In this document: positions 53,043-64,000 of the stretch, piece by piece
Position numbering within the stretch: position 1 is the stretch's first letter
Layout: each line of letters begins with the position of its first letter
From: Escherichia coli
GTDB taxonomy: Bacteria; Pseudomonadota; Gammaproteobacteria; Enterobacterales; Enterobacteriaceae
Length of the DNA: 64,000 nucleotides
NCBI RefSeq assembly: GCF_003790525.1
Contig: NZ_CP033635.1
Reading direction: 5' to 3' (one strand)
The notes under the pieces: generated by a model
Seen by the model: the letters and a program-made list of their open reading frames with translations, nothing else
Databases searched by the model: none
What the model was told of the DNA's origin: nothing
Position numbers and translations under genes: made by a program

Positions 53043-54356
<1,314 letters not shown>

Positions 54357-54376: not shown

Positions 54377-54399
54377 AAAAAGCGCCTGCGGGCGCTTTT
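54377..54399 (+). terminator. serS terminator
   Basis: AAAAAGCGCCTGCGGGCGCTTTT. Confidence 0.65.
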
Positions 54400-54554
54400 G
54401 CATGGTACTTAACTATATGAAAATAAATGGATTTTATTTTCATGTGTCCAGATAATGTCCATCTTTGAAGAAAAAAGTCCACAATACTGACGTTGTGGGC
54501 TTTTCTTTTTCCTGATGGTGTCGTGCCGTCAGTGCAACGAACCAAAGGGAGGGG

Positions 54555-54782
54555 ATGTTGATGTTGTTTTCCCTTCGCACCAGCTTTAAAGCCACTCTTG
54601 TTAACGATGATGGTACGCCACGGATCACGGCCGAGGTGAGGAATGTGACACCTGATGATATCGGGAAGGTGGCGGAACTTGTCAGGGATGTTTTTGGTAC
54701 TCCTTCCGGTACCTGCCGTTCAGACTCTGCGGCCAGGGTTGACAGGCAGGATGTTAACGCCGGGTGGCTTACGCGCCTCTGA
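54555..54782 (+). CDS. Hypothetical small protein (75 aa), possible distant paralogue of the 71-aa array protein
   Basis: Strong SD AGGGAGGGG before ATG; convergent with hok-like copy 1; shares the M.LF..R...GTP pattern with the 57756 ORF. Confidence 0.4.
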   Translation: MLMLFSLRTSFKATLVNDDGTPRITAEVRNVTPDDIGKVAELVRDVFGTPSGTCRSDSAARVDRQDVNAGWLTRL

Positions 54783-54932
54783 ATGATGATGCCCTCACTG
54801 GTGAGGGTGACAAAAAAGCCCTCTCAATGGCGGGCAAATCTGGTTTTTTGTTTTGTCTCTACAGGGAAAGGGCGCCATATCGGCCCACCCCAACAACCGG
54901 ATAGCGGGGAATTTCTCCCCCGCTGCGGTTTC

Positions 54933-55073
54933 TTACGGTTTACACTGCAAGAACGCCGCAAAACGCGCTCCCCAGATATCAAAGCTGAATTCACATAACG
55001 AATCGTGGACCATCCAGATGACCAGGGTTATTGTCAGGCATAAAATGCCAACAATAATCGTTTTTTGCGGTAT
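54933..55073 (-). pseudogene. Hok/Gef-family toxin homologue, copy 1, start codon ATG->ATA
   Basis: Hand-translated ...LCLTITLVIWMVHDSLCEFSFDIWGARFAAFLQCKP; the position aligned to the ATG of copy 2 is ATA (TAT at 55071-55073 on the + strand); overlapping mok-like frame 54991..55173. Confidence 0.45.
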
Positions 55074-55314
55074 AGCGCTTGCTCCTTTTACAAAGAGGCG
55101 CTAACCTTCCACTTGTCACGGTAGGAAGGGTCAGGCCTCGGTTAAACACAGATGTTTTCCGGGGCCTTTCCACATCCGGCCTTCAGGTTTTCCCTCCGGC
55201 CATCAGCCGAAAGGCACCCGTTTCTTTTTGTTGCGGCAATATTTCAGGTGTCAGTTGGGGTGGGCTGTATCTTGTCTGATGCATAAAAAAATGCCCGCGC
55301 TTTGGCGGGCAAAA

Positions 55315-55496
55315 GACAAGACTTTTCGTTTGTATATCATGGATAATGGACACCCCTTCCTGTTGTCAGGTGGCAGGCACCCGTGGTTAATCTACTGTTT
55401 TTGTGCTTTTGTCTCAACCCTGAAGTTTTCATGGAAAATCAGGGTTGCTTCATATGTGCCAGGAAGGTGCGGCTATGATAACTGCCAAAAAAAGCC
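55315..55496 (-). ncRNA. Structured repeat element X1 (candidate sRNA, subtype a)
   Basis: ~170 bp bounded by hairpins; internal perfect stems (CAACCCTGA...TCAGGGTTG, CCTTCC...GGAAGG); no SD-led ORF. Confidence 0.3.
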
Positions 55497-55525
55497 CGCT
55501 TTCCGGCGGGCAAAACAGCAATGTG

Positions 55526-55683
55526 AGTTGTCTGTCATTGATACTGGACAGCCTTCCTGTTGTCAGGTGGAAGGTACCCGTGGTTAATCTACTGTCTTTG
55601 TGCTTTTGTCTCAACCCTGAAGTTTTCATGGAAAATCAGGGTTGCTTCATGTGAACCAGGAAGGTGAGGCGATGGTAACCGCC
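55526..55683 (-). ncRNA. Structured repeat element X2 (candidate sRNA, subtype b)
   Basis: Near-identical core to X1 with a different distal end (CAGCAATGTGAGTTGTCTGTCATTGATACTGG). Confidence 0.3.
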
Positions 55684-55930
55684 AAAAAAATGCCCGCTTT
55701 CCGGCGGGCAAAACAAGGAAGTACGGATCATGTATTATTGATTACGAGGCATTCCACCATGCCCACGTTTAATTTAGCTAGTTTTCATTTTATTCACAAT
55801 ATAGTTACTTATCATATTTATGAACAAAACTGTAATTTCATCTATAGGTATAAGTGATTTGCATTAACATGTTTCTTCTGTATTGCTGTTGGTTTTCCGA
55901 TGCTGATATTTATGATACATTCAGGGGCAA

Positions 55931-56135
55931 ATGAGGTTGTTCCACAGAAACGATGTTGAGATATTTCTGCTCCAGAAAGGACAAGCTAAAAAAATAAAGT
56001 GAAATTATGATATGTCAGGGATGTTCAGGCATGTCAGTGTCTTATTAATAAACTCGTTGCTGCTGTAATAACACCAAAAAAATCAAAGCATAATCTGCAT
56101 GTTGTTCCTGATGACCCAATAACCACAAAAGAATA
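55931..56135 (+). pseudogene. Degenerate copy of the small array protein gene (frameshift/early stop)
   Basis: Begins MRLFHRNDVEI... then stops after 23 aa; the downstream DNA still aligns with the intact copy through ...CTGATGACCC(A/C)ATAACCACAAAAGAATAA. Confidence 0.4.
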
Positions 56136-56164
56136 AAAAAATGCCCGCTTTCCGGCGGGCAAAA

Positions 56165-56333
56165 CAGCAATGTGAGTTGTCTGTCATTGATACTGGACAC
56201 CCTTCCTGTTGTCAGGTGGAAGGCACCCGTGGTTAATCTACTGTCTTTGTGCTTTTGGCTCAACCCTGAAGTTTTCATGGAAAATCAGGGCTGCTTTGTG
56301 TGCGCCAGGGAAGGCGCCTCGATGGCAGGCGCA
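56165..56333 (-). ncRNA. Structured repeat element X3 (subtype b)
   Basis: Copy of X2 between hairpins at 56134 and 56333. Confidence 0.3.
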
Positions 56334-56586
56334 AAAAAAATGCCCGTGCTTCGGCGGGCAAAATAAGGAAGTACAGGTTACATGTTATTGATAAAGTAGC
56401 ATTGCTCTGTCCGTCTTTAATCTAACGAGTTTTGAGTTTTTTCACAATATTGTTACCTGTCATGTTATAGATGAAACTGCAATTTCATCTATAGGTATAA
56501 ATGATTTGTATTAATGTGTGTCCACTGTTTGTCTGCTTTCTGGTTTTCAGTTGACTGTGTTTCTGATGAATTCAGGAGGTTGTCTT

Positions 56587-56685
56587 ATGAGGCTGTTCCA
56601 CAGAAACGATATTGAGATTGAACTGCATTTCTCCTCCGGTGAGGATAAGGTTAAATCATTGTTGATGAAAAAAACAAAGATTTAA
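56587..56685 (+). pseudogene. 3'-truncated copy of the small array protein gene
   Basis: MRLFHRNDIEIELHFSSGEDKVKSLLMKKTKI*; AGGAGG SD; identical to the intact copy for 23 codons, then diverges. Confidence 0.35.
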
Positions 56686-56937
56686 TTTATTGATATAAAG
56701 GATTTGTATCAGCGTATGTCCACGCAGTGACCACATTTTCGAGAGGTAGAGTAAGCCCGCAACATTGCGGGCTTTGTCTTATAGTCTGATCACTGTTTCA
56801 AGTCGGTGAGGACACCAAAAAGAAAACCCGCAGTTTTTATGCTGCGGGTTTGTTGTTCATGTCTGTGAGATAGGGTGCCTTATCGACCTTACCCTGGCAA
56901 CCGATTGACGGGGGATTGCTCCCCCGTCGCGGTTTCC

Positions 56938-57078
56938 TTACTTCTTACATTGTAAGAACGCCGCAAACTCCGCTCCCCAGAAGCTCATCCGTATTTCGCA
57001 CAGCGAACCGTGCAATATCCAGATGATGAGGATTGCCGTCACGCAGAACGTGATGGCCGTAAGCGATTTTTGCGACAT
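56938..57078 (-). CDS. Hok/Gef-family type I toxin homologue (46 aa), copy 2, intact
   Basis: Hand-translated MSQKSLTAITFCVTAILIIWILHGSLCEIRMSFWGAEFAAFLQCKK: TM helix plus SLCE(I/L)R and AAFLxC signature of Hok proteins; fully overlapped by a mok-like frame (56945..57178). Confidence 0.65.
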   Translation of the reverse strand: MSQKSLTAITFCVTAILIIWILHGSLCEIRMSFWGAEFAAFLQCKK

Positions 57079-57335
57079 AGCACTTGCTCCTTTTCCGGAG
57101 AGGCGCTAACCTTTCACTTGTCAAGGTAATGCGGTTAGGGCCTCGGTTAAACAGAAATGTTTTCCGGGGCCTTTCCACATCCGGCCTTCAGGTTTTCCCT
57201 CCGGCCATCAGCCGAAAGGCACCCGCGCGTAATTTAACTGTTTCTTTTTGTTGCGGCAATATTTCAGGTGTCAGTTGGGGTGGGCTGTATCTTGTCTGAT
57301 GCATAAAAAAATGCCCGCGCTTCGGCGGGCAAAAA

Positions 57336-57504
57336 ACAAGACTTTTCGTTTGTATATCATGGATAATGGACACCCTTCCTGTTGTCAGGGGGAGGTACCC
57401 GTAGCTAATCTACTCACTTTGTGCCCGCAGCTCAACCCTGAAGTTTTCATGGAAAATCAGGGCTGCTTTGTGTGCGCCAGGGAAGGCGCCTCGATGGCAG
57501 GCGC
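57336..57504 (-). ncRNA. Structured repeat element X4 (subtype a)
   Basis: Copy of X1 between hairpins at 57305 and 57505. Confidence 0.3.
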
Positions 57505-57755
57505 AAAAAAAATGCCCGCTCTCCGGCGGGCAAAACAATGATCTACGTCACATTATATTGATAACCGGGCATTCCTCCATGCCCATTTTTAATTTAGCCA
57601 TTTTTCATTTTGTTCACAATATAGTTATCTATCATATTCATGAATGAAATTATAATTTCATCTATAGGTATAAATGATTTGTGTTAATATGTTTCTCCTG
57701 TCTAACTGTTTTCTCATTTTTCGATACTAGTATTTCTGATATATTCAGGGGGCGT

Positions 57756-57971
57756 ATGAGATTGTTCCGAAGAAACGATATTGAGATTGAACTGCATTTC
57801 TCCTCCGGTGAGGATAAGGTTAAATCAATAAAGGTGAAACTAAGACATGCCCGGGATGTTCAGGCGTGTCAGTGTCTTATTGATGAACTCGTTGCTGCCG
57901 GAGGAACGCCAAAAAAACAAAAATATAATCTGCACGTGGTTCCTGATGACCCCATAACCACAAAAGAATAA
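57756..57971 (+). CDS. Small basic protein (71 aa), intact copy of the array family
   Basis: MRLFRRNDIEIELHFSSGEDKVKSIKVKLRHARDVQACQCLIDELVAAGGTPKKQKYNLHVVPDDPITTKE; GGGGG SD; AT-rich promoter-like region upstream; two degenerate paralogues nearby. Confidence 0.5.
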   Translation: MRLFRRNDIEIELHFSSGEDKVKSIKVKLRHARDVQACQCLIDELVAAGGTPKKQKYNLHVVPDDPITTKE

Positions 57972-58113
57972 AAAAATGCCCGCTTTCCGGCGGGCAAAAA
58001 ACAATTTAGGTCATATTTCATCATGGATAATTAAATACTTGCCCGTGGTTGCGGGAAAGTATCTGCCGTTAATCTACTTGCCTTATGATGTCCTCTCAAC
58101 CTGATTATTGTTC

Positions 58114-58365
58114 TTAAATATCAAGATTAATCTGAGTATTCCCCCTGTGAGATCCCGGAAAATCTTCCCACGGTATCCGCTCTGTACCCTGCGGCGACGG
58201 GGCGCGTTTTGATGTGAATTTGTTAAAACCCTCCAGTGTGGTAAAGCCGATCCCGCATTCGAGGTTATTGCACTGGTAGTACTTCAGGCGAACTGTGCCT
58301 GAATCATTTTCATTGCGACTGGTGCGGATACGTGCGGATGCACCGCATAGGGGACAACGGAACAT
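58114..58365 (-). CDS. ogr: Ogr/Delta-family zinc-finger late transcription activator
   Basis: MFRCPLCG...YYQCNNLECG: CxxC...CxxxxC spacing as in P2 Ogr. Confidence 0.8.
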   Translation of the reverse strand: MFRCPLCGASARIRTSRNENDSGTVRLKYYQCNNLECGIGFTTLEGFNKFTSKRAPSPQGTERIPWEDFPGSHRGNTQINLDI

Positions 58366-58408
58366 GGCTTCTCCTTATCTGGCTGAGTGGAGATGGCTCA
58401 TTTTAATT

Positions 58409-59500
58409 TTATCCGCCTGAATCTGCTATCCATTCGGGGATTTTCGCTTCCAGCTCCAGTTGTGTGGTGAAGCCGCTTTCATCTATGATGTGCTCCACCC
58501 TGGCAATAATCCAGTCCTGATTGTCCACCTCGCTTTTAAAACCTGTTACCCTGCCGTGCATTTCGGGATACAGGTCGGCACGACCCCGTGCCAGAGTGAT
58601 GGAGAATGCCGCTGCTCCCCGCTGTAACTCCTGCCACTTTGCCGCAGCTGCACGTCGTGCGGTTTCTTCATTCTGGTAAGTCCTGCGCAGAACGTAGACG
58701 TTCCCTTCCGCGCCTTCCATGTAATCACCCTCCCGGCTGCTGCTCTTCTCCTGTTTCTGTTTCCCGGCTTCCCTGCGTCGCTTCACGTTCACTTTTTTCT
58801 TGTGCCCGAACTTCAGATCGAGCCAGTGCGCCCGGACCCCCGTATACGCATCACGGTCAGCAATGCGAAAGCGGTGACTGTCGCCGCTGCTGCGGGTAAT
58901 GGCGAACGAAGGCAGGGCTCTTCCGTCCGGCCCGGTTCCGCCACCCGGCAGAATGAATAACAGGCTGCCGTTTTTTACGGTGGCAATCGCACCCAGCATT
59001 TCAGCCATGCGGGTCAGGAAGGATATATCGCTCTCTTCGGTCTGGTCAGCGTGGTCAATTTCGATATCCATGAGGATTTCGCTTATCTGTGTCTTCAGGC
59101 CGTAGCGGTGAGCGATGGCTGACACAACCTGTTTTACGGTCACGTCGTGCCAGGATACCTCCCGCCTCACGTTGAACTCTTCCCGAAAATCTGCGCTGCT
59201 GGCGGTGATGATCAGTTTATCTGGAGGTCCTTCCCACGCAACCTCATCAACGACGTAGGTGCCCTTGTTAACCAGTGATTCTCCTCGCCAGCCAATCATC
59301 ACTCTCAGGCGTGCGCCACGTGGTGGCAACTGTAACTGCCCGTCCGTATCGTCAAGGGTGAGGGTGACGCGGTCTGCCTCAAAGGCCCGGTTATCCGTCA
59401 GGGTCAGCGTCATGAGTCGCTCTGTGAGGTTTGCCAGTGTGTTGTTGTTGATGGTGATGTCGATATCCGGTGACGGAACGGTAACTGACAGCTCTTTCAT
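58409..59500 (-). CDS. P2 gpD-like tail protein (late control D)
   Basis: ...LTLTDNRAFEADRVTLTLDD...DISFLTRMAE...SGDSHRFRIADRDAYTGVRAHW... parallels P2 D; start at MKELSV with AGGAGAG SD. Confidence 0.8.
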   Translation of the reverse strand: MKELSVTVPSPDIDITINNNTLANLTERLMTLTLTDNRAFEADRVTLTLDDTDGQLQLPPRGARLRVMIGWRGESLVNKGTYVVDEVAWEGPPDKLIITASSADFREEFNVRREVSWHDVTVKQVVSAIAHRYGLKTQISEILMDIEIDHADQTEESDISFLTRMAEMLGAIATVKNGSLLFILPGGGTGPDGRALPSFAITRSSGDSHRFRIADRDAYTGVRAHWLDLKFGHKKKVNVKRRREAGKQKQEKSSSREGDYMEGAEGNVYVLRRTYQNEETARRAAAAKWQELQRGAAAFSITLARGRADLYPEMHGRVTGFKSEVDNQDWIIARVEHIIDESGFTTQLELEAKIPEWIADSGG

Positions 59501-59661
59501 GGTGTTCTCTCCTGGTGCGTTCTGTAATGGTTTCATGCACCGCAGCGGCGTTGAATGGCTGTTTTGTTGTCGCTGTCAGGAGACAACATCAAAGGGGTGA
59601 GATTACCGCGTGTGTGGGTAATGATTACGCAAAATCAACCAGCCAGACAAGGGTGAAACAT

Positions 59662-60945
59662 ATGAGTGAAACACGCTTTCATGGTGCGCGCGTAAGGGAA
59701 AGTACCGGCCTTGCCACCGCCATTAATGATGTGGATTCCAGTGTTATTGGTATTGTGGCTACGGCAGATGACGCGGATGAAACTCTGTTCCCGCTGAACA
59801 AACCCACACTGCTGACCCGCGTCAGTGATGTGCTGGGTAAGGCCGGCACAAAGGGGACGCTTTACAAATCGCTTAAGGCTGTCGCCGACCAGGTGAGCAC
59901 GAAGGTGATTGTGGTGCGCGTTCCTGATGCCAGTTCTCAGGGCGCCCCGGATACAGGAGTTACATCATTCGGTCATCTGGATCCTGAAGACAGGGCATTT
60001 TTTGGTATTGATGAGTCTGAAGATGCACATCCTGTATACCCACACAAAACGCAGGACCAGTATGTCATTGGTGGCACGGATGGCGACGGTAATTATACCG
60101 GTATGTATGCACTTCTGATAGCTGAACAGGATGATGCCATCGGTTACCGTCCGCGCATCATCGCAGCTCCCGGACTGGATACTGAAGCTGTCACAAAATC
60201 CCTGTGTGTAATTGCAGAAAAACTTCGCGCATTTGTCTACGCGGGCTGTCACAACTGCAAGAAGCCCGCCGATGCAATCAGCTACCGCGCCAGATTTAAC
60301 GAGCGCGAACTTATGCTGGTCTGGCCGGACTTCATCGCCCATAACCCGAAATCCGGCGCTAATGAGGTCTTCCCGGCTGTGGCGTACGCCTGCGGTTTAC
60401 GTGCACGTATTGACCACGAACAGGGCTGGCATAAATCGCTGTCCAACGTGCCGGTAAGAAATGTGCTGGGTATTTCCAGCCCGGTGTTCTGGTCCCTTCA
60501 GTCCGAAGACAGCGATGCCAACAATCTCAACAACAAGGAAATCACTACCATCATTTGCCGTAACGGTTTCCGCTTCTGGGGCAACCGTACGCCGGAAACG
60601 AAGGCGTATATCTTTGAGGTGTACACGCGAACCGCTCAGGTGCTGGCTGATTCCATTGCGGAAGCGCAGTTTGAAACGATTGATGCCCCGCTGACCCCTG
60701 CTAATGTGAAAGACGTGTTAAGCGCAATTCGCGCAAAACTGGATGCGCTGGTTACGTCAGGACGTCTCATTGGTGCGGAGTGCTGGTATGACGTGGTGGA
60801 TAACAGCACCACGGAACTTCGTCAGGGACGCGTGCGTATCCGCTACAAGTACACGCCCGTTCCGCCGCTTGAGGATATGGAACTTTACCAGGCGTTTACT
60901 GATGAATTCTTTGGTCCTGCATTTGCGACGCTTGGAGGTGCTTAA
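59662..60945 (+). CDS. Contractile tail sheath protein (P2 FI-like)
   Basis: ...ETLFPLNKP...KLRAF...RELMLVWPDF...RIDHEQGWHKSLSNV...GFRFWGNRT...YTRTAQVLAD...YTPVPPLE collinear with P2 FI. Confidence 0.85.
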   Translation: MSETRFHGARVRESTGLATAINDVDSSVIGIVATADDADETLFPLNKPTLLTRVSDVLGKAGTKGTLYKSLKAVADQVSTKVIVVRVPDASSQGAPDTGVTSFGHLDPEDRAFFGIDESEDAHPVYPHKTQDQYVIGGTDGDGNYTGMYALLIAEQDDAIGYRPRIIAAPGLDTEAVTKSLCVIAEKLRAFVYAGCHNCKKPADAISYRARFNERELMLVWPDFIAHNPKSGANEVFPAVAYACGLRARIDHEQGWHKSLSNVPVRNVLGISSPVFWSLQSEDSDANNLNNKEITTIICRNGFRFWGNRTPETKAYIFEVYTRTAQVLADSIAEAQFETIDAPLTPANVKDVLSAIRAKLDALVTSGRLIGAECWYDVVDNSTTELRQGRVRIRYKYTPVPPLEDMELYQAFTDEFFGPAFATLGGA

Positions 60946-61463
60946 TGGCCGTACCAAAAAATCTCAGGGTGTTCACGCTGTTTACTGACGGGGTGAACCA
61001 GATTGGCAGGGTGACCGGCTTCACGCCCCCCAAACTGACCCGTAAAACGGAAGCCTATCGCGGTGGTGGTATGGCCGGCGCGGTGAATATCGACCTTGGT
61101 CTGGATGACGGCGCGCTGGATGCGAGTTTCACCATGGGCGGGCCGACCCGCGAACTGTTCCTTAAGTACGGCGGCACGATCGACGGTACGCTGCTGCGCT
61201 TTGTCGGTGAGTACTACAACGATGAAGAGCAGAGCGACCTGTATGAAATTGAGCTTCGCGGCCGCGTGACGGAAATTGATACGGGGGAGGCAAAACAGGG
61301 TGAGGTCACGTCTCACACCTATGCGGTCAGGAGTACCTACTACAAACTCAGCATTAACGACCGTCCGGTGCTGGAGATTGATTTACTGAACCACATCGAA
61401 CGCAAGGACGGCAAAAACGTCTTCCCGGACCGCGTGCGCTCGGCGATTGGTCTTGGTGGTTAA
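60945..61463 (+). CDS. Tail tube protein (P2 FII-like)
   Basis: ...PPKLTRKTEAYRGGGMAGAVNIDLGLDDGALD...EIDTGEAKQGE...; ATG overlaps the FI stop (TAATG). Confidence 0.85.
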   Translation: MAVPKNLRVFTLFTDGVNQIGRVTGFTPPKLTRKTEAYRGGGMAGAVNIDLGLDDGALDASFTMGGPTRELFLKYGGTIDGTLLRFVGEYYNDEEQSDLYEIELRGRVTEIDTGEAKQGEVTSHTYAVRSTYYKLSINDRPVLEIDLLNHIERKDGKNVFPDRVRSAIGLGG

Positions 61464-61513
61464 TGTTTCCCACGGCGGCGCGCGGCGTCGCCCCCTGATT
61501 TGAGGTTTTATGC

Positions 61514-61876
61514 ATGAAAGAAAATCCGGTTGTTGCCCCTGTTACTGACGGTGCTGATGCGGCGGACGTGACCAGTGAGCGCGGCGTGACGCTGAAAACG
61601 CCCCTTGTGCTCGGTAACAAAAAAATCACGTATGTGGAAATCACGCCTGCTGTACAGCAGGCCGGTTCACTGCGCGGGCTGTCACTGCTTGACGTGCTGA
61701 ACATGAAAACGGACGCGATGTTTGAGTTACTCCCGCGCGTCACTTCGCCGCGACTGGACGAGGTTCTGCTTAAGCGCATGGGGTCCGCTGATTTTATTCA
61801 GCTGTGCGGGGTGGCGGTTAATTTTTTGGCCGGTCAGGACTCTGGCGGGAAGAGCGGGGCGGCGACGGCAGGCTGA
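61514..61876 (+). CDS. Tail assembly chaperone (P2 E-like); a -1 frameshift at TTTTTTG would give an E'-like product ending at 62040
   Basis: Position between tube and tape-measure genes; slippery TTTTTTG at 61823-61829; -1 frame open to 62040 (...ITVVPFEHIEDFVADIAVIFNWSPAEIF...). Confidence 0.65.
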   Translation: MKENPVVAPVTDGADAADVTSERGVTLKTPLVLGNKKITYVEITPAVQQAGSLRGLSLLDVLNMKTDAMFELLPRVTSPRLDEVLLKRMGSADFIQLCGVAVNFLAGQDSGGKSGAATAG

Positions 61877-62026
61877 TAACCGTCGTGCCCTTTGAGCACA
61901 TTGAAGACTTTGTGGCGGATATCGCCGTTATTTTCAACTGGTCTCCCGCTGAAATCTTCCTGATGGATCCCGGCGAGGTGGTCGCCTGGCGTGAGCGGGC
62001 GGCCCTTCGCAGCGGGAACGCAGAGC

Positions 62027-64000
62027 ATGAAAACGCTTGATATACGGGTCGCCTTCAGCGCTGTTGACAGGCTGACCCGTCCCACCGAAAACGCCCGTCG
62101 CATGATGGGCCAGCTTGGCGACTCCATACAGAGAACGCAGGGTGCGATCAAAAACCTGGAACGCTACGCCCGTTCATTTGATCGCGCCCGCGAGGCTGCA
62201 AACAAGGCCGGAAACGGCATTGTCAGGGCGCAACGCCAGTTAAGCGCACTTCAGCAAATTCAGCGCGCCGGAACCGTGCTGTCTGACAAACAGAAAAAGC
62301 TGATGAACGATTTGAGCCTCAAACTTGAGCGTCTCAATGAGGTCCGTGCGCGTGAAGTTCAGCGAATGCGCGAACTGGGTGGTGAGCTGCGGCGCCACGG
62401 TATTGCGCTTTCCGGCAGTGACAACACCATTCAACAGGCCATACGGCGAACACAGCAATACAACGACCAGCTGGAACGCGAACGGCAGGCGCTGGCACGT
62501 GTCACGCAGGCACGCCAGCAATATTCCCGTGCTCAGGAGACGGCGGGAAAACTTAAAACGGTCGGACTTACGGCGGTTGGTACGGCGGCGGCAGGCGGCT
62601 ATGCGGCCGGACGTTTCCTGCAACCGGCGGTCAGTTTTGGTAAGGAGATGTCACGCGTCCAGGCGCTGACCCGTATTGACAAAAACAGTCCGCAGTTTAA
62701 GGCGCTGCGCGAACAGGCCATTAAGCTGGGCTCTGAAACGCAGTTTACCGCCGGTGATGCTGCCAGCGGTCAGGCGTTCCTTGCCATGGCCGGCTTCACA
62801 CCACAGGCCATACAGGCGGCGCTACCCGGCGTGCTTGATCTGGCAATGGCTGCAGGGATGGACCTGGGACAGACTGCCGATATCAGTTCGAATATCCTCA
62901 CACAGTTTGGTCTGTCCGCTGACCAGATGGATCGCGTGGGTGACACGCTGGCCGCCACCTTCACACGAACCAATACGGATCTCCGTTCACTGGGTGAAAC
63001 CATGAAGTACACGGGTCCGGTTGCAGCTTCACTTGGCCTGTCCCTTGAACAGGCGGCAGCCATGACGGGTGTCCTTGGCAGTGTGGGGATCCGTGGAAGT
63101 GATGCAGGTACGGCGCTGCGTGCCAGTCTGTCACGTCTGGTTGATCCGCCGAAGGCCGCTGCAATGGCACTGAAAGAGCTTGGCGTGGAGACGCAGAATG
63201 CTTACGGGAACATGCGCCGGATGGAAAATATCCTGAATGAGCTGTACCAGGCCACCCGAAAATACGGTAATGCCGCGCAGGTCTCCTTTTTCAGGGCTAT
63301 TGCCGGGCAGGAGTCCTATGTTTCCCTGATGAATCTTGTCACTGCGGCGGGGGAAAATAATCTTCCCCGTCTTACGCAGGAGATTGAACTGGCCACCGGG
63401 GAACTTAATCACACTGCCCGTGTTATGGCTGATAACCTGGACGGTGACCTGAAATCACTGAACAGCGCATGGGAAGGACTGCGTATCCGTGTCGCTGACC
63501 TCGTTGACGGGCCGCTGCGTTCTGTCACGCAGTCGTTCACCCGGGTTATTGCGAAAGTCACCGCGCTGGCTCAGGCGCACCCTGAACTGACAAAACAACT
63601 GCTGATTGCCGGTGGTGTACTGCTGGCTGCGGTTGCGGCCATGGGGGCGCTGTCACTTGCCACTGGTGTGTTGATGGGGCCGCTGGCAAAACTGCGTCTT
63701 GGGTTTGCCCTGCTGACCGGCACATCCGGCCTCGGTCGTGCGCTGCCGTTACTGACGCAGCTGCGCGGCGTACTCGGTGGTCCGCTGGGCGGTATCGGTG
63801 GCTGGCGCGTGCTGTTTGTCGGTATCACCTCCGGTGCCGGACGGTTTGCTGCACTGCTGGGCGTAGTTGCGGGGCGGCTTCGTGGTGTGCAGGCGGGACT
63901 TGGCGCGCTGCGTGGTGGTCTGCTGGCTGCGTTCACTTCACCTGGCGGCGCACTGATTTCACTGGGGCGCGGTATCGGAATACTGGCGCTCAGACTGTCA
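62027..64000 (+). CDS. Tail tape-measure protein (P2 T-like); 3' end lies outside the window
   Basis: Hand-translated frame open from ATG 62027 to the window end (MKTLDIRVAFSAVDRL...); coiled-coil N-terminus and Gly/Ala-rich hydrophobic segments; absent from the ORF track because no stop lies in the window. Confidence 0.7.
   Translation, partial: MKTLDIRVAFSAVDRLTRPTENARRMMGQLGDSIQRTQGAIKNLERYARSFDRAREAANKAGNGIVRAQRQLSALQQIQRAGTVLSDKQKKLMNDLSLKLERLNEVRAREVQRMRELGGELRRHGIALSGSDNTIQQAIRRTQQYNDQLERERQALARVTQARQQYSRAQETAGKLKTVGLTAVGTAAAGGYAAGRFLQPAVSFGKEMSRVQALTRIDKNSPQFKALREQAIKLGSETQFTAGDAASGQAFLAMAGFTPQAIQAALPGVLDLAMAAGMDLGQTADISSNILTQFGLSADQMDRVGDTLAATFTRTNTDLRSLGETMKYTGPVAASLGLSLEQAAAMTGVLGSVGIRGSDAGTALRASLSRLVDPPKAAAMALKELGVETQNAYGNMRRMENILNELYQATRKYGNAAQVSFFRAIAGQESYVSLMNLVTAAGENNLPRLTQEIELATGELNHTARVMADNLDGDLKSLNSAWEGLRIRVADLVDGPLRSVTQSFTRVIAKVTALAQAHPELTKQLLIAGGVLLAAVAAMGALSLATGVLMGPLAKLRLGFALLTGTSGLGRALPLLTQLRGVLGGPLGGIGGWRVLFVGITSGAGRFAALLGVVAGRLRGVQAGLGALRGGLLAAFTSPGGALISLGRGIGILALRLS

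What the first reader, a model, noticed from the sequence alone, without database searches (positions are those of the whole stretch)
54400..58100. Decaying tandem array of small-protein / Hok-toxin / structured-RNA modules between serS and the P2-like prophage
About 3.7 kb of apparently non-core DNA is built from repeated modules: (i) a small basic protein gene on the + strand with a strong SD (one intact at 57756-57971, degenerate copies at 55931 and 56587, possible distant paralogue at 54555); (ii) a convergent Hok-family toxin gene on the - strand, present in two modules (intact at 56938-57078, ATG->ATA at 54933-55073); (iii) a ~170-bp highly structured element in four copies; (iv) eight copies of one hairpin. 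The recurring pairing of the small protein gene with a hok gene, plus duplicated structured RNAs, is not a layout I recognise from classical hok/mok/sok loci. It could be a composite toxin-antitoxin or phage-exclusion locus, possibly cargo next to the prophage end.
Basis: partly seen in the sequence, partly recalled or inferred. Interest (0 to 1): 0.8.

Follow-up and report, generated by a model that had tools for sequence, protein, structure and literature searches.

The report
Patchwork cargo region of a defective prophage
The 3.7 kb of repeats is the accessory-gene slot of a defective P2-like prophage inserted at the end of serS; it holds ordinary hok/sok toxin-antitoxin copies, two orphan small genes, and eight copies of an undescribed promoter-plus-terminator mini-gene that probably makes a small RNA.

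Summary
The repeats are real and are not an assembly artefact. The identical 3.7-kb array occurs in about 25 complete E. coli genomes from different hosts and countries.

The array does not lie between serS and the prophage. It lies inside the prophage. A 15-bp direct repeat, the 3' half of the serS terminator, bounds about 21 kb running from 54385 to a P2-type integrase next to dmsA. The array fills the slot between att and ogr, and related Peduoviridae (Chuche, 500465-2, P88) carry variable cargo plus hok in that slot.

The hok modules are canonical hokW/sokW-type type I toxin-antitoxin loci. One is intact and one has ATG changed to ATA.

The 71-aa gene and hok are not a functional pair. Sister prophages carry one without the other. 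ORF71 is an orphan related to the C-terminal half of an uncharacterised 128-aa enterobacterial family.

The new point is that the eight hairpins are minus-strand terminators of eight homologous mini-units. Each has TTGnGn, exactly 17 nt, TAnATT, then a terminator. The predicted RNAs are 80-98 nt. Expression is untested and covariation is inconclusive.

The array is a recombinational mosaic of at least two phage lineages. Interest is moderate to low.

The parts
54385..54399 (+). att core CCTGCGGGCGCTTTT, the 3' half of the serS terminator. It is the serS-side junction of the prophage.
   Evidence: The same 15 bp recur next to the integrase at the dmsA side in the identical strain LH10-b-1. K-12 has a single copy at the empty site. 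There is only one copy in the window.
54400..54510 (+). Phage arm next to att (GTGTCCA / GTCCAT repeats), followed by a plus-strand terminator-like hairpin at 54473-54504.
   Evidence: The same arm follows the same core in a sister prophage at the zapB terminator. A similar arm is present in the copA-site prophage. The integrase arm-site role is inferred.
54555..54782 (+). ORF75, an orphan cargo gene with a strong Shine-Dalgarno sequence. Function unknown.
   Evidence: Only four protein clusters exist, all from E. coli. There is no PHROG, NCBIfam or PADLOC match. A homologue occupies the same att-proximal position in the copA-site prophage. It is not related to ORF71.
54815..55219 (-). hok/sok module 1, with hok probably inactive. 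The Hok frame is 54933-55073 with ATG changed to ATA. The mok-like frame is 54991-55173.
   Evidence: Rfam sok RF01794 scores 48.1 bits, E 1.2e-8, at 55062-55219. The 5' GGGUGCC can pair with the 3' GGCGCCC (read from the sequence).
55285..55417 (-). Mini-unit X1: -35 TTGAGA, 17 nt, -10 TAGATT, predicted ~98-nt RNA, terminator H.
55487..55614 (-). Mini-unit X2: TTGAGA, 17 nt, TAGATT, predicted ~93-nt RNA, terminator H. The near-palindrome AACCCTGA-N15-TCAGGGTT at 55613-55643 lies just upstream of the -35.
55684..55799 (-). Mini-unit Y1: TTGTGA, 17 nt, TAAATT, predicted ~81-nt RNA, terminator H. It is divergent from ORF71 copy 1.
55931..56136 (+). ORF71 copy 1, a pseudogene with frameshifts and stops.
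   Evidence: Direct repeats D13 and D5 are 88-94% identical to the intact gene. The ORF list shows no open frame.
56135..56263 (-). Mini-unit X3: TTGAGC, 17 nt, TAGATT, predicted ~94-nt RNA, terminator H.
56333..56447 (-). Mini-unit Y2: TTGTGA, 17 nt, TAGATT, predicted ~80-nt RNA, terminator H. The 5' hairpin is degenerate.
56587..56652 (+). ORF71 copy 2, the 5' fragment only. It is cut off at GGTTAAATCA.
   Evidence: Repeat D11 is 89% identical to the intact gene. Homology to the att-proximal arm of phage Chuche starts at 56653. Metagenomic contig L020 has this same copy intact.
56653..56798 (+). att-proximal arm of a second Peduoviridae lineage (Chuche / 500465-2 type), with a plus-strand terminator-like hairpin at 56753-56774.
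   Evidence: It is 89-90% identical to the sequence just after int in Chuche and to the sequence at the host junction of prophage 500465-2.
56807..57260 (-). hok/sok module 2, intact. hok is 56938-57078 (46 aa). The mok-like frame is 56945-57178. The mRNA is predicted to run from ~57224 to the terminator at 56824-56851.
   Evidence: It is 90-93% identical to the hok loci of Chuche, 500465-2 and P88. Rfam sok scores 46.2 bits, E 3.9e-8. PHROG 251 matches at E 8.5e-22. RefSeq annotates it as a Hok/Gef family protein. The 5' GGGUGCCUU is complementary to the 3' AAGGCACCC.
57305..57435 (-). Mini-unit X4: TTGAGC, 17 nt, TAGATT, predicted ~96-nt RNA, terminator H. Its 3' ~70 nt are 99% identical to X1, which marks a recent recombination breakpoint.
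   Evidence: (repeat D8)
57505..57619 (-). Mini-unit Y3: TTGTGA, 17 nt, TAAATT, predicted ~80-nt RNA, terminator H. It is divergent from the intact ORF71. An 18-bp perfect palindrome ATGAAATTATAATTTCAT (57644-57661) lies between Y3 and the gene.
   Evidence: The palindrome was read.
57756..57971 (+). ORF71, intact, 71 aa and mildly basic. It is an orphan small protein related to the C-terminal half of a 128-aa family of unknown function.
   Evidence: (phrog_14142, E 4.9e-12)
57970..58099 (-). Mini-unit X5: TTGAGA, 17 nt, TAGATT, predicted ~95-nt RNA, terminator H. It starts 15 nt after the ogr stop codon, so it is also the ogr 3'UTR.
58114..58365 (-). ogr/Delta-type zinc-finger late activator, the first conserved phage gene after the cargo slot.
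   Evidence: RefSeq annotation. NCBIfam NF007241 matches at E 3.4e-10. It is 74-75% identical at DNA level to ogr of Chuche, 500465-2 and P88.

Best explanation
The region is the variable cargo slot between att and ogr of a defective P2-like (Peduoviridae, P88/Gemsvirus-type) prophage. The prophage integrated into the 3' half of the serS terminator.

The slot holds independent modules, each insulated by terminators:
- two canonical hokW/sokW-type type I toxin-antitoxin loci, one with its start codon destroyed;
- an orphan 75-aa gene;
- three copies of an orphan 71-aa gene, one of them intact;
- eight paralogous minus-strand mini-genes (X1-X5, Y1-Y3).

Each mini-gene consists of a sigma-70-type promoter, about 55-70 nt of sequence, and a strong intrinsic terminator. 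The 'eight hairpins' are these terminators.

Inferred, not shown:
- The mini-genes most likely produce 80-98-nt small RNAs. Each would have a 5' stem-loop, an A/U-rich single-stranded stretch carrying the conserved motif UAUC(A/C)AU, and a U7-8 tail.
- X5 would double as the ogr 3'UTR.
- The hok/sok modules would act as in other mobile elements, by killing after loss of the element or by aiding phage release or exclusion.

The apparent tandem array arose by unequal or homologous recombination among the X/Y/H repeats. One further junction joins it to the att arm of a second phage lineage. The protein genes then decayed along with the rest of the prophage.
For: Location inside the prophage:
- Divergence from K-12 starts at 54400, directly after the serS terminator.
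- The 15-bp core recurs beside the integrase next to dmsA.
- The window holds no internal core copy.
- The same core and arm are found at zapB in strain SCU-115.

The slot is a cargo slot:
- Chuche, 500465-2 and P88 have the order int/att, variable cargo, hok, ogr, D.
- Sister prophages carry hicAB or ORF75 in the slot.

The prophage is defective: about 21 kb, no capsid, terminase, lysis or replication genes annotated, and a frameshifted tape-measure gene.

hok/sok evidence is. hokW-sokW function was shown experimentally in PMC8621323.

Mini-genes:
- A regular expression for promoter, 17 nt, -10 and terminator finds exactly eight units, all on the minus strand, and none on the plus strand of the 64-kb window.
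- X and Y units align with invariant -35, -10, motif and terminator blocks.
- Between the diverged X5 and the other X units, identity is 0.9 to 1.0 in the hexamers and 0.91 in the terminator, against 0.3 to 0.59 elsewhere. The spacer is 17 nt in all copies.
- The predicted folds share one architecture.
- No reading frame is conserved across copies.

Mosaic origin:
- SCU-115 lacks 56660-57303.
- 56653-56798 is the Chuche-type att arm.
- Repeat D8 is 99% identical while its neighbours are 82%.
- L020 has an intact copy-2-type ORF71.
Against: - There is no transcript evidence for any X/Y RNA.
- Covariation is inconclusive. Only 7 near-identical sequences were available, with one double-sided change, and shuffles reach the observed score in 57 of 500 trials.
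- No Rfam family matches.
- No convincing target was found in the prophage.
- The family is confined to about 30 of 5426 E. coli genomes and is absent from representatives of 100,044 species. Conservation of promoter and terminator could therefore partly reflect recent duplication rather than selection.
- Y2 has lost its 5' hairpin.
- The sok promoter was not pinpointed.
- The functions of ORF71 and ORF75 remain unknown. The AlphaFold model of the 128-aa relative P0009 (ORF71 itself was not modelled) is of low confidence, pLDDT 52.
Confidence: 0.7

Rival explanations
1. The X/Y units are not RNA genes. They are duplicated relics of the ogr 3' end and terminator, or passive transcriptional insulators that stop read-through between cargo modules, ogr and serS. 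The promoter-like hexamers are conserved only because the duplications are recent.
For: - X5 is literally the ogr 3'UTR, and weak homology between X1-4 and X5 continues into the last ogr codons.
- The Y 5' hairpin doubles as a plus-strand terminator-like site (57567-57584).
- Covariation is not significant.
- The phylogenetic range is very narrow.
Against: - X and Y units have diverged to about 50-60% identity, yet all keep TTGnGn, exactly 17 nt, and TAnATT.
- The hexamers and the terminator are the best-conserved blocks. This is not expected for neutral relics of that divergence.
Confidence: 0.22
2. One reading: hok, the 71-aa protein and the structured RNA form one composite toxin-antitoxin or phage-exclusion system.
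For: - The parts are adjacent in the window.
- Every ORF71 copy is flanked by a divergent Y unit and a convergent X unit.
- Remote ORF71 relatives sit in cargo positions of a P2/HP1-like prophage and of a P4-like satellite.
Against: - hok occurs without ORF71 or X in Chuche, 500465-2 and P88. ORF71 with X/Y occurs without hok in the ihfA-site and copA-site prophages.
- ORF71 is hydrophilic, with no PADLOC, Pfam or NCBIfam match (Pfam was run on its 128-aa relative only).
- Its 128-aa relatives have no X/Y units nearby.
Confidence: 0.06
3. The X elements are fossil or secondary attachment sites (integron-like cassette boundaries) left by repeated integrase-mediated insertions.
For: - By eye, CCGTTAATCTACT in X5 resembles CCGTTAAATCTCCT next to the core on the integrase side.
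- One junction in the array (56652/56653) does coincide with the att arm of another phage.
Against: - Local alignment scores of X1-X5 against the att junction fall within the shuffle distribution.
- The same X/Y/ORF71 block is carried by phages with different integration sites and arms.
Confidence: 0.03

Closest known systems
hok/sok type I toxin-antitoxin loci, specifically hokW-sokW of Stx phage Sp5/933W (PMC8621323) and the hok loci of Peduoviridae phages P88, Chuche and 500465-2
   Same: - Hok-family toxin ORF.
- Overlapping mok-like frame.
- Leader matching Rfam sok.
- 5'/3' fold-back complementarity.
- Position next to ogr in the phage genome.
- Copy 2 is 90-93% identical in DNA to the Peduoviridae loci, and both copies are ~79% identical to hokW.
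   Different: - Two copies sit in one cargo slot, and one has ATG changed to ATA.
- Hok here is 46 aa, against 51 aa for HokW.
- The Rfam scores (46-48 bits) are below the gathering score of 59.
[quoted passage not shown] 2022, PMC9122126)
   Same: - A short locus (1-5 kb) of high gene turnover.
- It lies between conserved phage anchor points.
- Its content differs between otherwise similar phages.
   Different: - The described P2 hotspot lies next to cos. This slot lies between att and ogr.
- No recognised defence system is present here.
Prophage-encoded and 3'UTR-embedded small RNAs (DicF, AgvB/AsxR, StxS, Pas sRNAs; MicL/DapZ-type 3'UTR sRNAs with their own promoter). Recalled from general knowledge; the Pas preprint 10.64898/2026.05.13.724894 was seen.
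   Same: - Short promoter-to-terminator units on a prophage.
- A long U tail and a U-rich stretch before the terminator.
- Several diverged copies per genome.
- X5 lies in an mRNA 3'UTR and has its own promoter.
   Different: - No sequence or Rfam relationship to any of these.
- Carried on a P2-like phage rather than a lambdoid one.
- Eight copies within 2.8 kb.
- Expression and targets are unknown.
phrog_14142 / the 128-aa enterobacterial hypothetical protein family (P0009)
   Same: ORF71 residues 1-56 align to the C-terminal half (profile positions 72-127). The invariant positions are D8, E10, E12, R30, C38, L41 and D43 in ORF71 numbering. The family is also found at the att-proximal edge of a P2/HP1-like prophage.
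   Different: - ORF71 lacks the N-terminal 71 residues.
- It has a unique 20-aa C-terminal tail.
- Identity is only 35-44%.
- The family itself has no known function.

Membership tests
hok/sok (type I toxin-antitoxin) | Small Hok/Gef-family membrane toxin ORF of about 50 aa | tested here: met
   PHROG 251 matches at E 8.5e-22. NCBIfam HokA matches at E 2.4e-7, below the curated cut-off. RefSeq annotates it as a Hok/Gef family protein. The SLCEIR motif is visible in the translation.
hok/sok (type I toxin-antitoxin) | Overlapping upstream mok reading frame | tested here: met
   Minus-strand ORFs at 56945-57178 and 54991-55173 overlap hok. Both share the N-terminus MERPRKT.
hok/sok (type I toxin-antitoxin) | Structured leader complementary to the Sok antisense RNA (Rfam RF01794) | tested here: inconclusive
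   Scores are 48.1 and 46.2 bits with E about 1e-8 over the full model length, but below the gathering score of 59. The sok promoter was not located.
hok/sok (type I toxin-antitoxin) | Long-range 5'/3' fold-back pairing of the hok mRNA | tested here: met
   In copy 2, the 5' GGGUGCCUU pairs with the 3' AAGGCACCC. Both blocks are conserved in copy 2 (hok2), P88, Chuche and 933W hokW (GGCACCC); copy 1 has GGCGCCC at the 3' block, which still pairs through one G-U.
hok/sok (type I toxin-antitoxin) | Toxicity of Hok and its neutralisation by the antisense RNA | not testable with these tools
   Shown only for the ~79% identical hokW-sokW locus (PMC8621323).
P2-like (Peduoviridae) prophage cargo | The region lies between direct att repeats that bound an element with a P2-type integrase and late genes | tested here: met
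   The 15-bp core is found at 54385-54399 and beside the integrase. The empty site is seen in K-12.
P2-like (Peduoviridae) prophage cargo | The same position is variable in sequenced relatives | tested here: met
   Chuche carries a methyltransferase and com. 500465-2 carries TagO and a zinc-ribbon protein. P88 carries an 80-aa ORF. Sister prophages carry hicAB or ORF75.
Base-pairing small RNA gene (X/Y units) | Own promoter and intrinsic terminator bounding 50-300 nt, with no conserved ORF | tested here: met
   All eight units have TTGnGn, 17 nt, TAnATT and a terminator. Reading frames differ between copies.
Base-pairing small RNA gene (X/Y units) | Secondary structure supported by covariation | tested here: inconclusive
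   92.5% of cells are paired, but only one compensatory change is seen, and 57 of 500 shuffles reach the observed score.
Base-pairing small RNA gene (X/Y units) | A detectable transcript, chaperone binding and a target | not testable with these tools
   No expression data are available. Target screens within the prophage did not rise above the null.
Any Rfam RNA family (X/Y units) | Match to a curated covariance model | tested here: not met
   Only sub-threshold hits were found, driven by the terminator (RyhB, AgvB, Hrs1, leader models), with E 0.19-0.7.
Type I or type III toxin-antitoxin with ORF71 as toxin | A small hydrophobic toxin with a cis-antisense RNA (type I), or a same-strand tandem RNA repeat array upstream of the toxin (type III) | tested here: not met
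   ORF71 is hydrophilic (read from the sequence). The X/Y units are on the opposite strand, and each has its own promoter and terminator.
Fossil att or cassette recombination sites (X) | Significant similarity of X to the phage att junction | tested here: not met
   Alignment scores fall within the shuffle distribution.

The most novel reading that the evidence does not exclude
The eight X/Y mini-genes are an undescribed multi-copy family of phage-encoded regulatory RNAs that act together with the 71-aa protein they flank. Y is divergent from it and X is convergent, with a terminator that is inefficient on the plus strand. One possibility is an RNA-controlled switch or RNA-antitoxin or defence module. 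Another is a set of sponges or regulators tied to the ogr 3'UTR that tune late-gene activation. Either would make the att-ogr slot of this phage lineage an RNA-based regulatory locus rather than a junkyard.
Probability: 0.12. Interest if true: 0.65.

Novelty: new member of a known kind. Interest (0 to 1): 0.33.

Why it matters
Most of the finding reduces to known biology. It is a prophage cargo slot carrying a well-known hok/sok addiction module, shuffled by recombination and decaying together with a defective prophage.

Three points go beyond that.
- It documents a cargo slot between att and ogr in P88/Gemsvirus-type P2-like phages. This slot is distinct from the published cos-proximal P2 hotspot.
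- It shows the phage using the 3' half of housekeeping-gene terminators (serS, and zapB in a sister strain) as attachment sites.
- It identifies a candidate new small-RNA family, present in eight paralogous copies within 2.8 kb. One copy is embedded in the 3'UTR of the late-gene activator ogr.

If these RNAs are expressed, they would be a compact system for studying how phage-borne small RNAs duplicate and diverge. Their rarity, about 0.5% of complete E. coli genomes, limits the general impact.

Tried and rejected
- **Fossil att sites.** I first thought X might be a fossil att junction, because of a by-eye match to the integrase-side arm. Shuffle-controlled local alignment shows no significance, and X travels with phages that use other sites.
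- **Wider search for X.** I scanned 100,044 species genomes for the X core pattern. All 68 hits were chance matches in unrelated taxa. A viral-contig scan found only E. coli-type copies. The phage and plasmid collections hold no X or ORF71 at blastn or tblastn sensitivity.
- **Small ORFs in X.** Candidate ORFs on either strand, including a frame with the peptide PWLIYCLCAF, have non-conserved frames, no Shine-Dalgarno sequence, and run through the terminators.
- **Targets.** An exact-complement k-mer search and an RNAduplex screen against 29 translation-start regions of the prophage gave nothing above the null.
- **ORF71 function.** There are no Pfam (run on the 128-aa relative P0009 only), NCBIfam, PADLOC or PDB matches. 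The AlphaFold2 model of the 128-aa relative has pLDDT 52, so no fold search was run.
- **ORF75 as a paralogue of ORF71.** Rejected.
- **Mobile repeat or MITE reading of X.** The copies occur only in this cargo slot and lack long terminal inverted repeats.

Full report
**Observation**

The window carries serS at 53064-54356. After it come 3.7 kb of repeats, then ogr (58114-58365, minus strand), gene D, and the tail sheath and tube genes of a P2-like phage.

- a ~174-nt element X at 55290, 55487, 56136 and 57308, with a partial fifth copy ending at 58101;
- a GC-rich hairpin H repeated eight times, plus one degenerate copy;
- two hok modules, 82% identical to each other;
- three copies of a 71-aa gene, of which only 57756-57971 is open.

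Terminator-like sites are three times more frequent than in shuffles: 17 against 5.2 +/- 2.4.

The array is not an assembly artefact. The same 3751 bases occur at 99.8-100% identity in 23 complete genomes from poultry and humans in several countries, and 26 genomes carry at least 80% of it. Only 30 of 5426 genomes carry element X at all.

**Where it sits**

In K-12, serS and dmsA are separated by 238 bp. The window diverges from K-12 exactly at 54400, directly after the serS terminator.

In strain LH10-b-1, which is identical over the array, the inserted DNA runs about 21 kb to a phage integrase next to dmsA. The integrase-side junction reads ...gttaaatct-CCTGCGGGCGCTTTT-tttgtctccc. The K-12 sequence resumes there after a 15-bp direct repeat of 54385-54399.

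No other copy of this core lies in the window. The whole array is therefore inside the att-bounded element, between att and ogr. It is not between serS and the prophage.

The element has int, a C-type repressor, cox, tail genes S through ogr, and a frameshifted tape-measure gene. No capsid, terminase, lysis or replication genes are annotated. It is a defective prophage.

**Comparison with relatives**

Three sequenced Peduoviridae (Chuche, 500465-2 and P88) share the order int/att, variable cargo, hok (minus), ogr (minus), D (minus), sheath (plus). Their cargo is a methyltransferase with com, TagO with a zinc-ribbon protein, or an 80-aa ORF.

Sister prophages of the window's lineage sit at other sites:
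- after ihfA, with hicAB as cargo;
- beside copA, with an ORF75 homologue as cargo;
- at the zapB terminator, with the same 15-bp core and arm.

The ihfA-site and copA-site prophages carry X-X-Y-ORF71-X5-ogr with no hok. The zapB-site prophage (SCU-115) carries the longer array described under 'How the array arose', which includes hok1.

Hence X, Y and ORF71 travel with the phage and not with serS. hok and ORF71 occur independently of each other. The published P2 defence hotspot lies next to cos, so this is a different slot (PMC9122126).

**The hok modules**

Both copies match the Rfam sok model over its full length (48 and 46 bits, E about 1e-8, below the gathering score of 59).

Copy 2 encodes a 46-aa Hok-family protein (PHROG 251, E 8.5e-22; RefSeq 'Hok/Gef family'). 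It also has:
- an overlapping mok-like frame;
- a 5' GGGUGCCUU that can pair with AAGGCACCC near the 3' end, both conserved in phage homologues and in hokW;
- a terminator at 56824-56851.

It is 90-93% identical to the hok loci of Chuche, 500465-2 and P88, and ~79% identical to hokW-sokW, which was shown experimentally to be a type I toxin-antitoxin system (PMC8621323).

Copy 1 is a diverged version whose start codon is ATA. These are canonical hok/sok loci.

**The small proteins**

ORF71 has only near-identical E. coli relatives among 5.8 billion clustered proteins.

An exhaustive phmmer search adds distant homologues. In these, ORF71 aligns to residues 72-124 of 128-133-aa proteins, and to a 57-aa protein. 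The alignment has seven or more invariant positions.

The 128-aa family is spread across Salmonella, Citrobacter, Enterobacter, Yersinia, Klebsiella and others. It is always annotated 'hypothetical'.
- One member is the first gene after att, at the raiA terminator, in a P2/HP1-like prophage.
- The 57-aa member follows the primase of a P4-like satellite.

There is no Pfam (run on the 128-aa relative P0009 only), NCBIfam, PADLOC or PDB match. The AlphaFold2 model of P0009 is of low confidence (pLDDT 52). It suggests a strand-strand-helix C-terminal domain.

ORF75 is an E. coli-only orphan and is unrelated to ORF71.

**The structured element and the hairpins**

The two blocks that are invariant in all X copies, CTCAACC and TTAATCTACT on the plus strand, read on the minus strand as TTGAGA, 17 nt, TAGATT. 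About 60-70 nt further downstream on the minus strand lies hairpin H followed by seven or eight T, which is a strong intrinsic terminator on that strand only.

The stretch upstream of each ORF71 copy holds a diverged homologue of the same unit, called Y here. It reads TTGTGA, 17 nt, TA(A/G)ATT, a shorter 5' hairpin, and the same terminator.

A regular expression for promoter, 17 nt, -10, 55-100 nt and terminator finds exactly eight units, all on the minus strand, and none on the plus strand of the 64-kb window. An nhmmer profile finds copies only in this phage lineage.

The eight hairpins are therefore the terminators of eight paralogous mini-genes:

| Unit | From | To |
|---|---|---|
| X1 | 55417 | 55285 |
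| X2 | 55614 | 55487 |
| Y1 | 55799 | 55684 |
| X3 | 56263 | 56135 |
| Y2 | 56447 | 56333 |
| X4 | 57435 | 57305 |
| Y3 | 57619 | 57505 |
| X5 | 58099 | 57970 |

Between X5 and the other X units, identity is 0.9 to 1.0 in the hexamers and 0.91 in the terminator, against 0.3 to 0.59 elsewhere. The spacer is always 17 nt.

The predicted 80-98-nt RNAs share one architecture: a 5' stem-loop, an A/U-rich single-stranded stretch with the conserved motif UAUC(A/C)AU, and a terminator with a long U tail.

X5 begins 15 nt after the ogr stop codon, so it is also the ogr 3'UTR.

Limits of this evidence:
- Covariation is inconclusive with so few, so similar sequences.
- No Rfam family matches.
- No target was found.
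- Expression is an inference.

**How the array arose**

The zapB-site prophage (SCU-115) has the order att, ORF75, hok1, X1, X2, Y, ORF71', X3, Y, ORF71, X5, ogr. This is the window's array without 56660-57303.

In the window, ORF71 copy 2 breaks at GGTTAAATCA (56652). It continues into 146 bp that are 89-90% identical to the att-proximal arm of Chuche and 500465-2, and then into the Chuche-type hok2 module. Chuche reads GGTTAAAAATCC at the corresponding point.

A metagenomic contig carries the same copy-2-type gene intact.

Downstream of hok2, a 136-bp segment is 99% identical to the hok1-X1 junction, while the flanks are 82% identical. This marks a recent exchange inside an X unit.

The 'tandem array' is therefore a recombinational mosaic of the left ends of at least two Peduoviridae lineages, followed by decay of the protein genes.

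**Verdict**

The interpretation as a composite toxin-antitoxin system is not supported.

The locus is prophage cargo with canonical hok/sok. Its one new component is a candidate multi-copy small-RNA family of narrow distribution. Interest is moderate to low unless the RNAs prove to be expressed and functionally tied to ORF71 or ogr.

Noticed in passing
window 54385-54399; L091 1500-1525; L007 5190-5215: This phage lineage uses the 3' half of intrinsic terminators of housekeeping genes as attachment sites. serS and zapB share the same 15-bp core CCTGCGGGCGCTTTT. A sister phage sits just after the ihfA terminator. Integration regenerates a terminator for the host gene.
   Followed up: partly
window 58114-64000 and L003 28197-46001: The prophage is only about 21 kb. 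No capsid, terminase, lysis or replication genes are annotated, and the tape-measure gene is frameshifted, but a near-complete tail module (S through D) remains. The sheath-to-U block is inverted relative to D-ogr, as in P88 and Chuche.
   Followed up: partly
L020 1-88: In a metagenomic viral contig, an IS10-type end is inserted inside an X unit. Downstream lies an intact ORF71 with the copy-2-type upstream region.
   Followed up: no
window 57644-57661 (also about 55830 and 56478): An 18-bp perfect palindrome ATGAAATTATAATTTCAT lies in the divergent promoter region between Y3 and ORF71, and is partly conserved in the other copies. It is a candidate operator for an unknown dimeric regulator.
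   Followed up: no
window 55613-55643 (X2; equivalent positions in X1, X3 and X4): A 31-bp near-palindrome AACCCTGA-N15-TCAGGGTT abuts the -35 hexamer of the X1-X4 promoters. It is absent from X5 and from the Y units. It could be a regulator site or an RNA hairpin. A second upstream hairpin differs in sequence but not in shape between X1/X2 and X3/X4.
   Followed up: no
L095 5001-5174; L093 5001-5387: Remote ORF71 homologues occupy cargo positions in other mobile elements. A 57-aa version follows the primase of a P4-like satellite. A 128-aa version is the first gene after att at the raiA terminator in a P2/HP1-like prophage that appears to be from Salmonella.
   Followed up: partly
window 54799-54838: The terminator of the dead hok1 module is a hybrid of hairpin H (GCCCGCC...) and another sequence. 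In the copA-site prophage, ORF75 is followed directly by a normal H-X unit. This suggests that hok1 was inserted at or into an H hairpin.
   Followed up: no
E. coli genomes GF60, TUM9803, LH50-c and 24A16CRGN010: Some genomes have 6-8 X-matching places instead of 4. This implies a second prophage of this lineage in the same cell, which would supply a partner for the recombination that built the mosaic.
   Followed up: no
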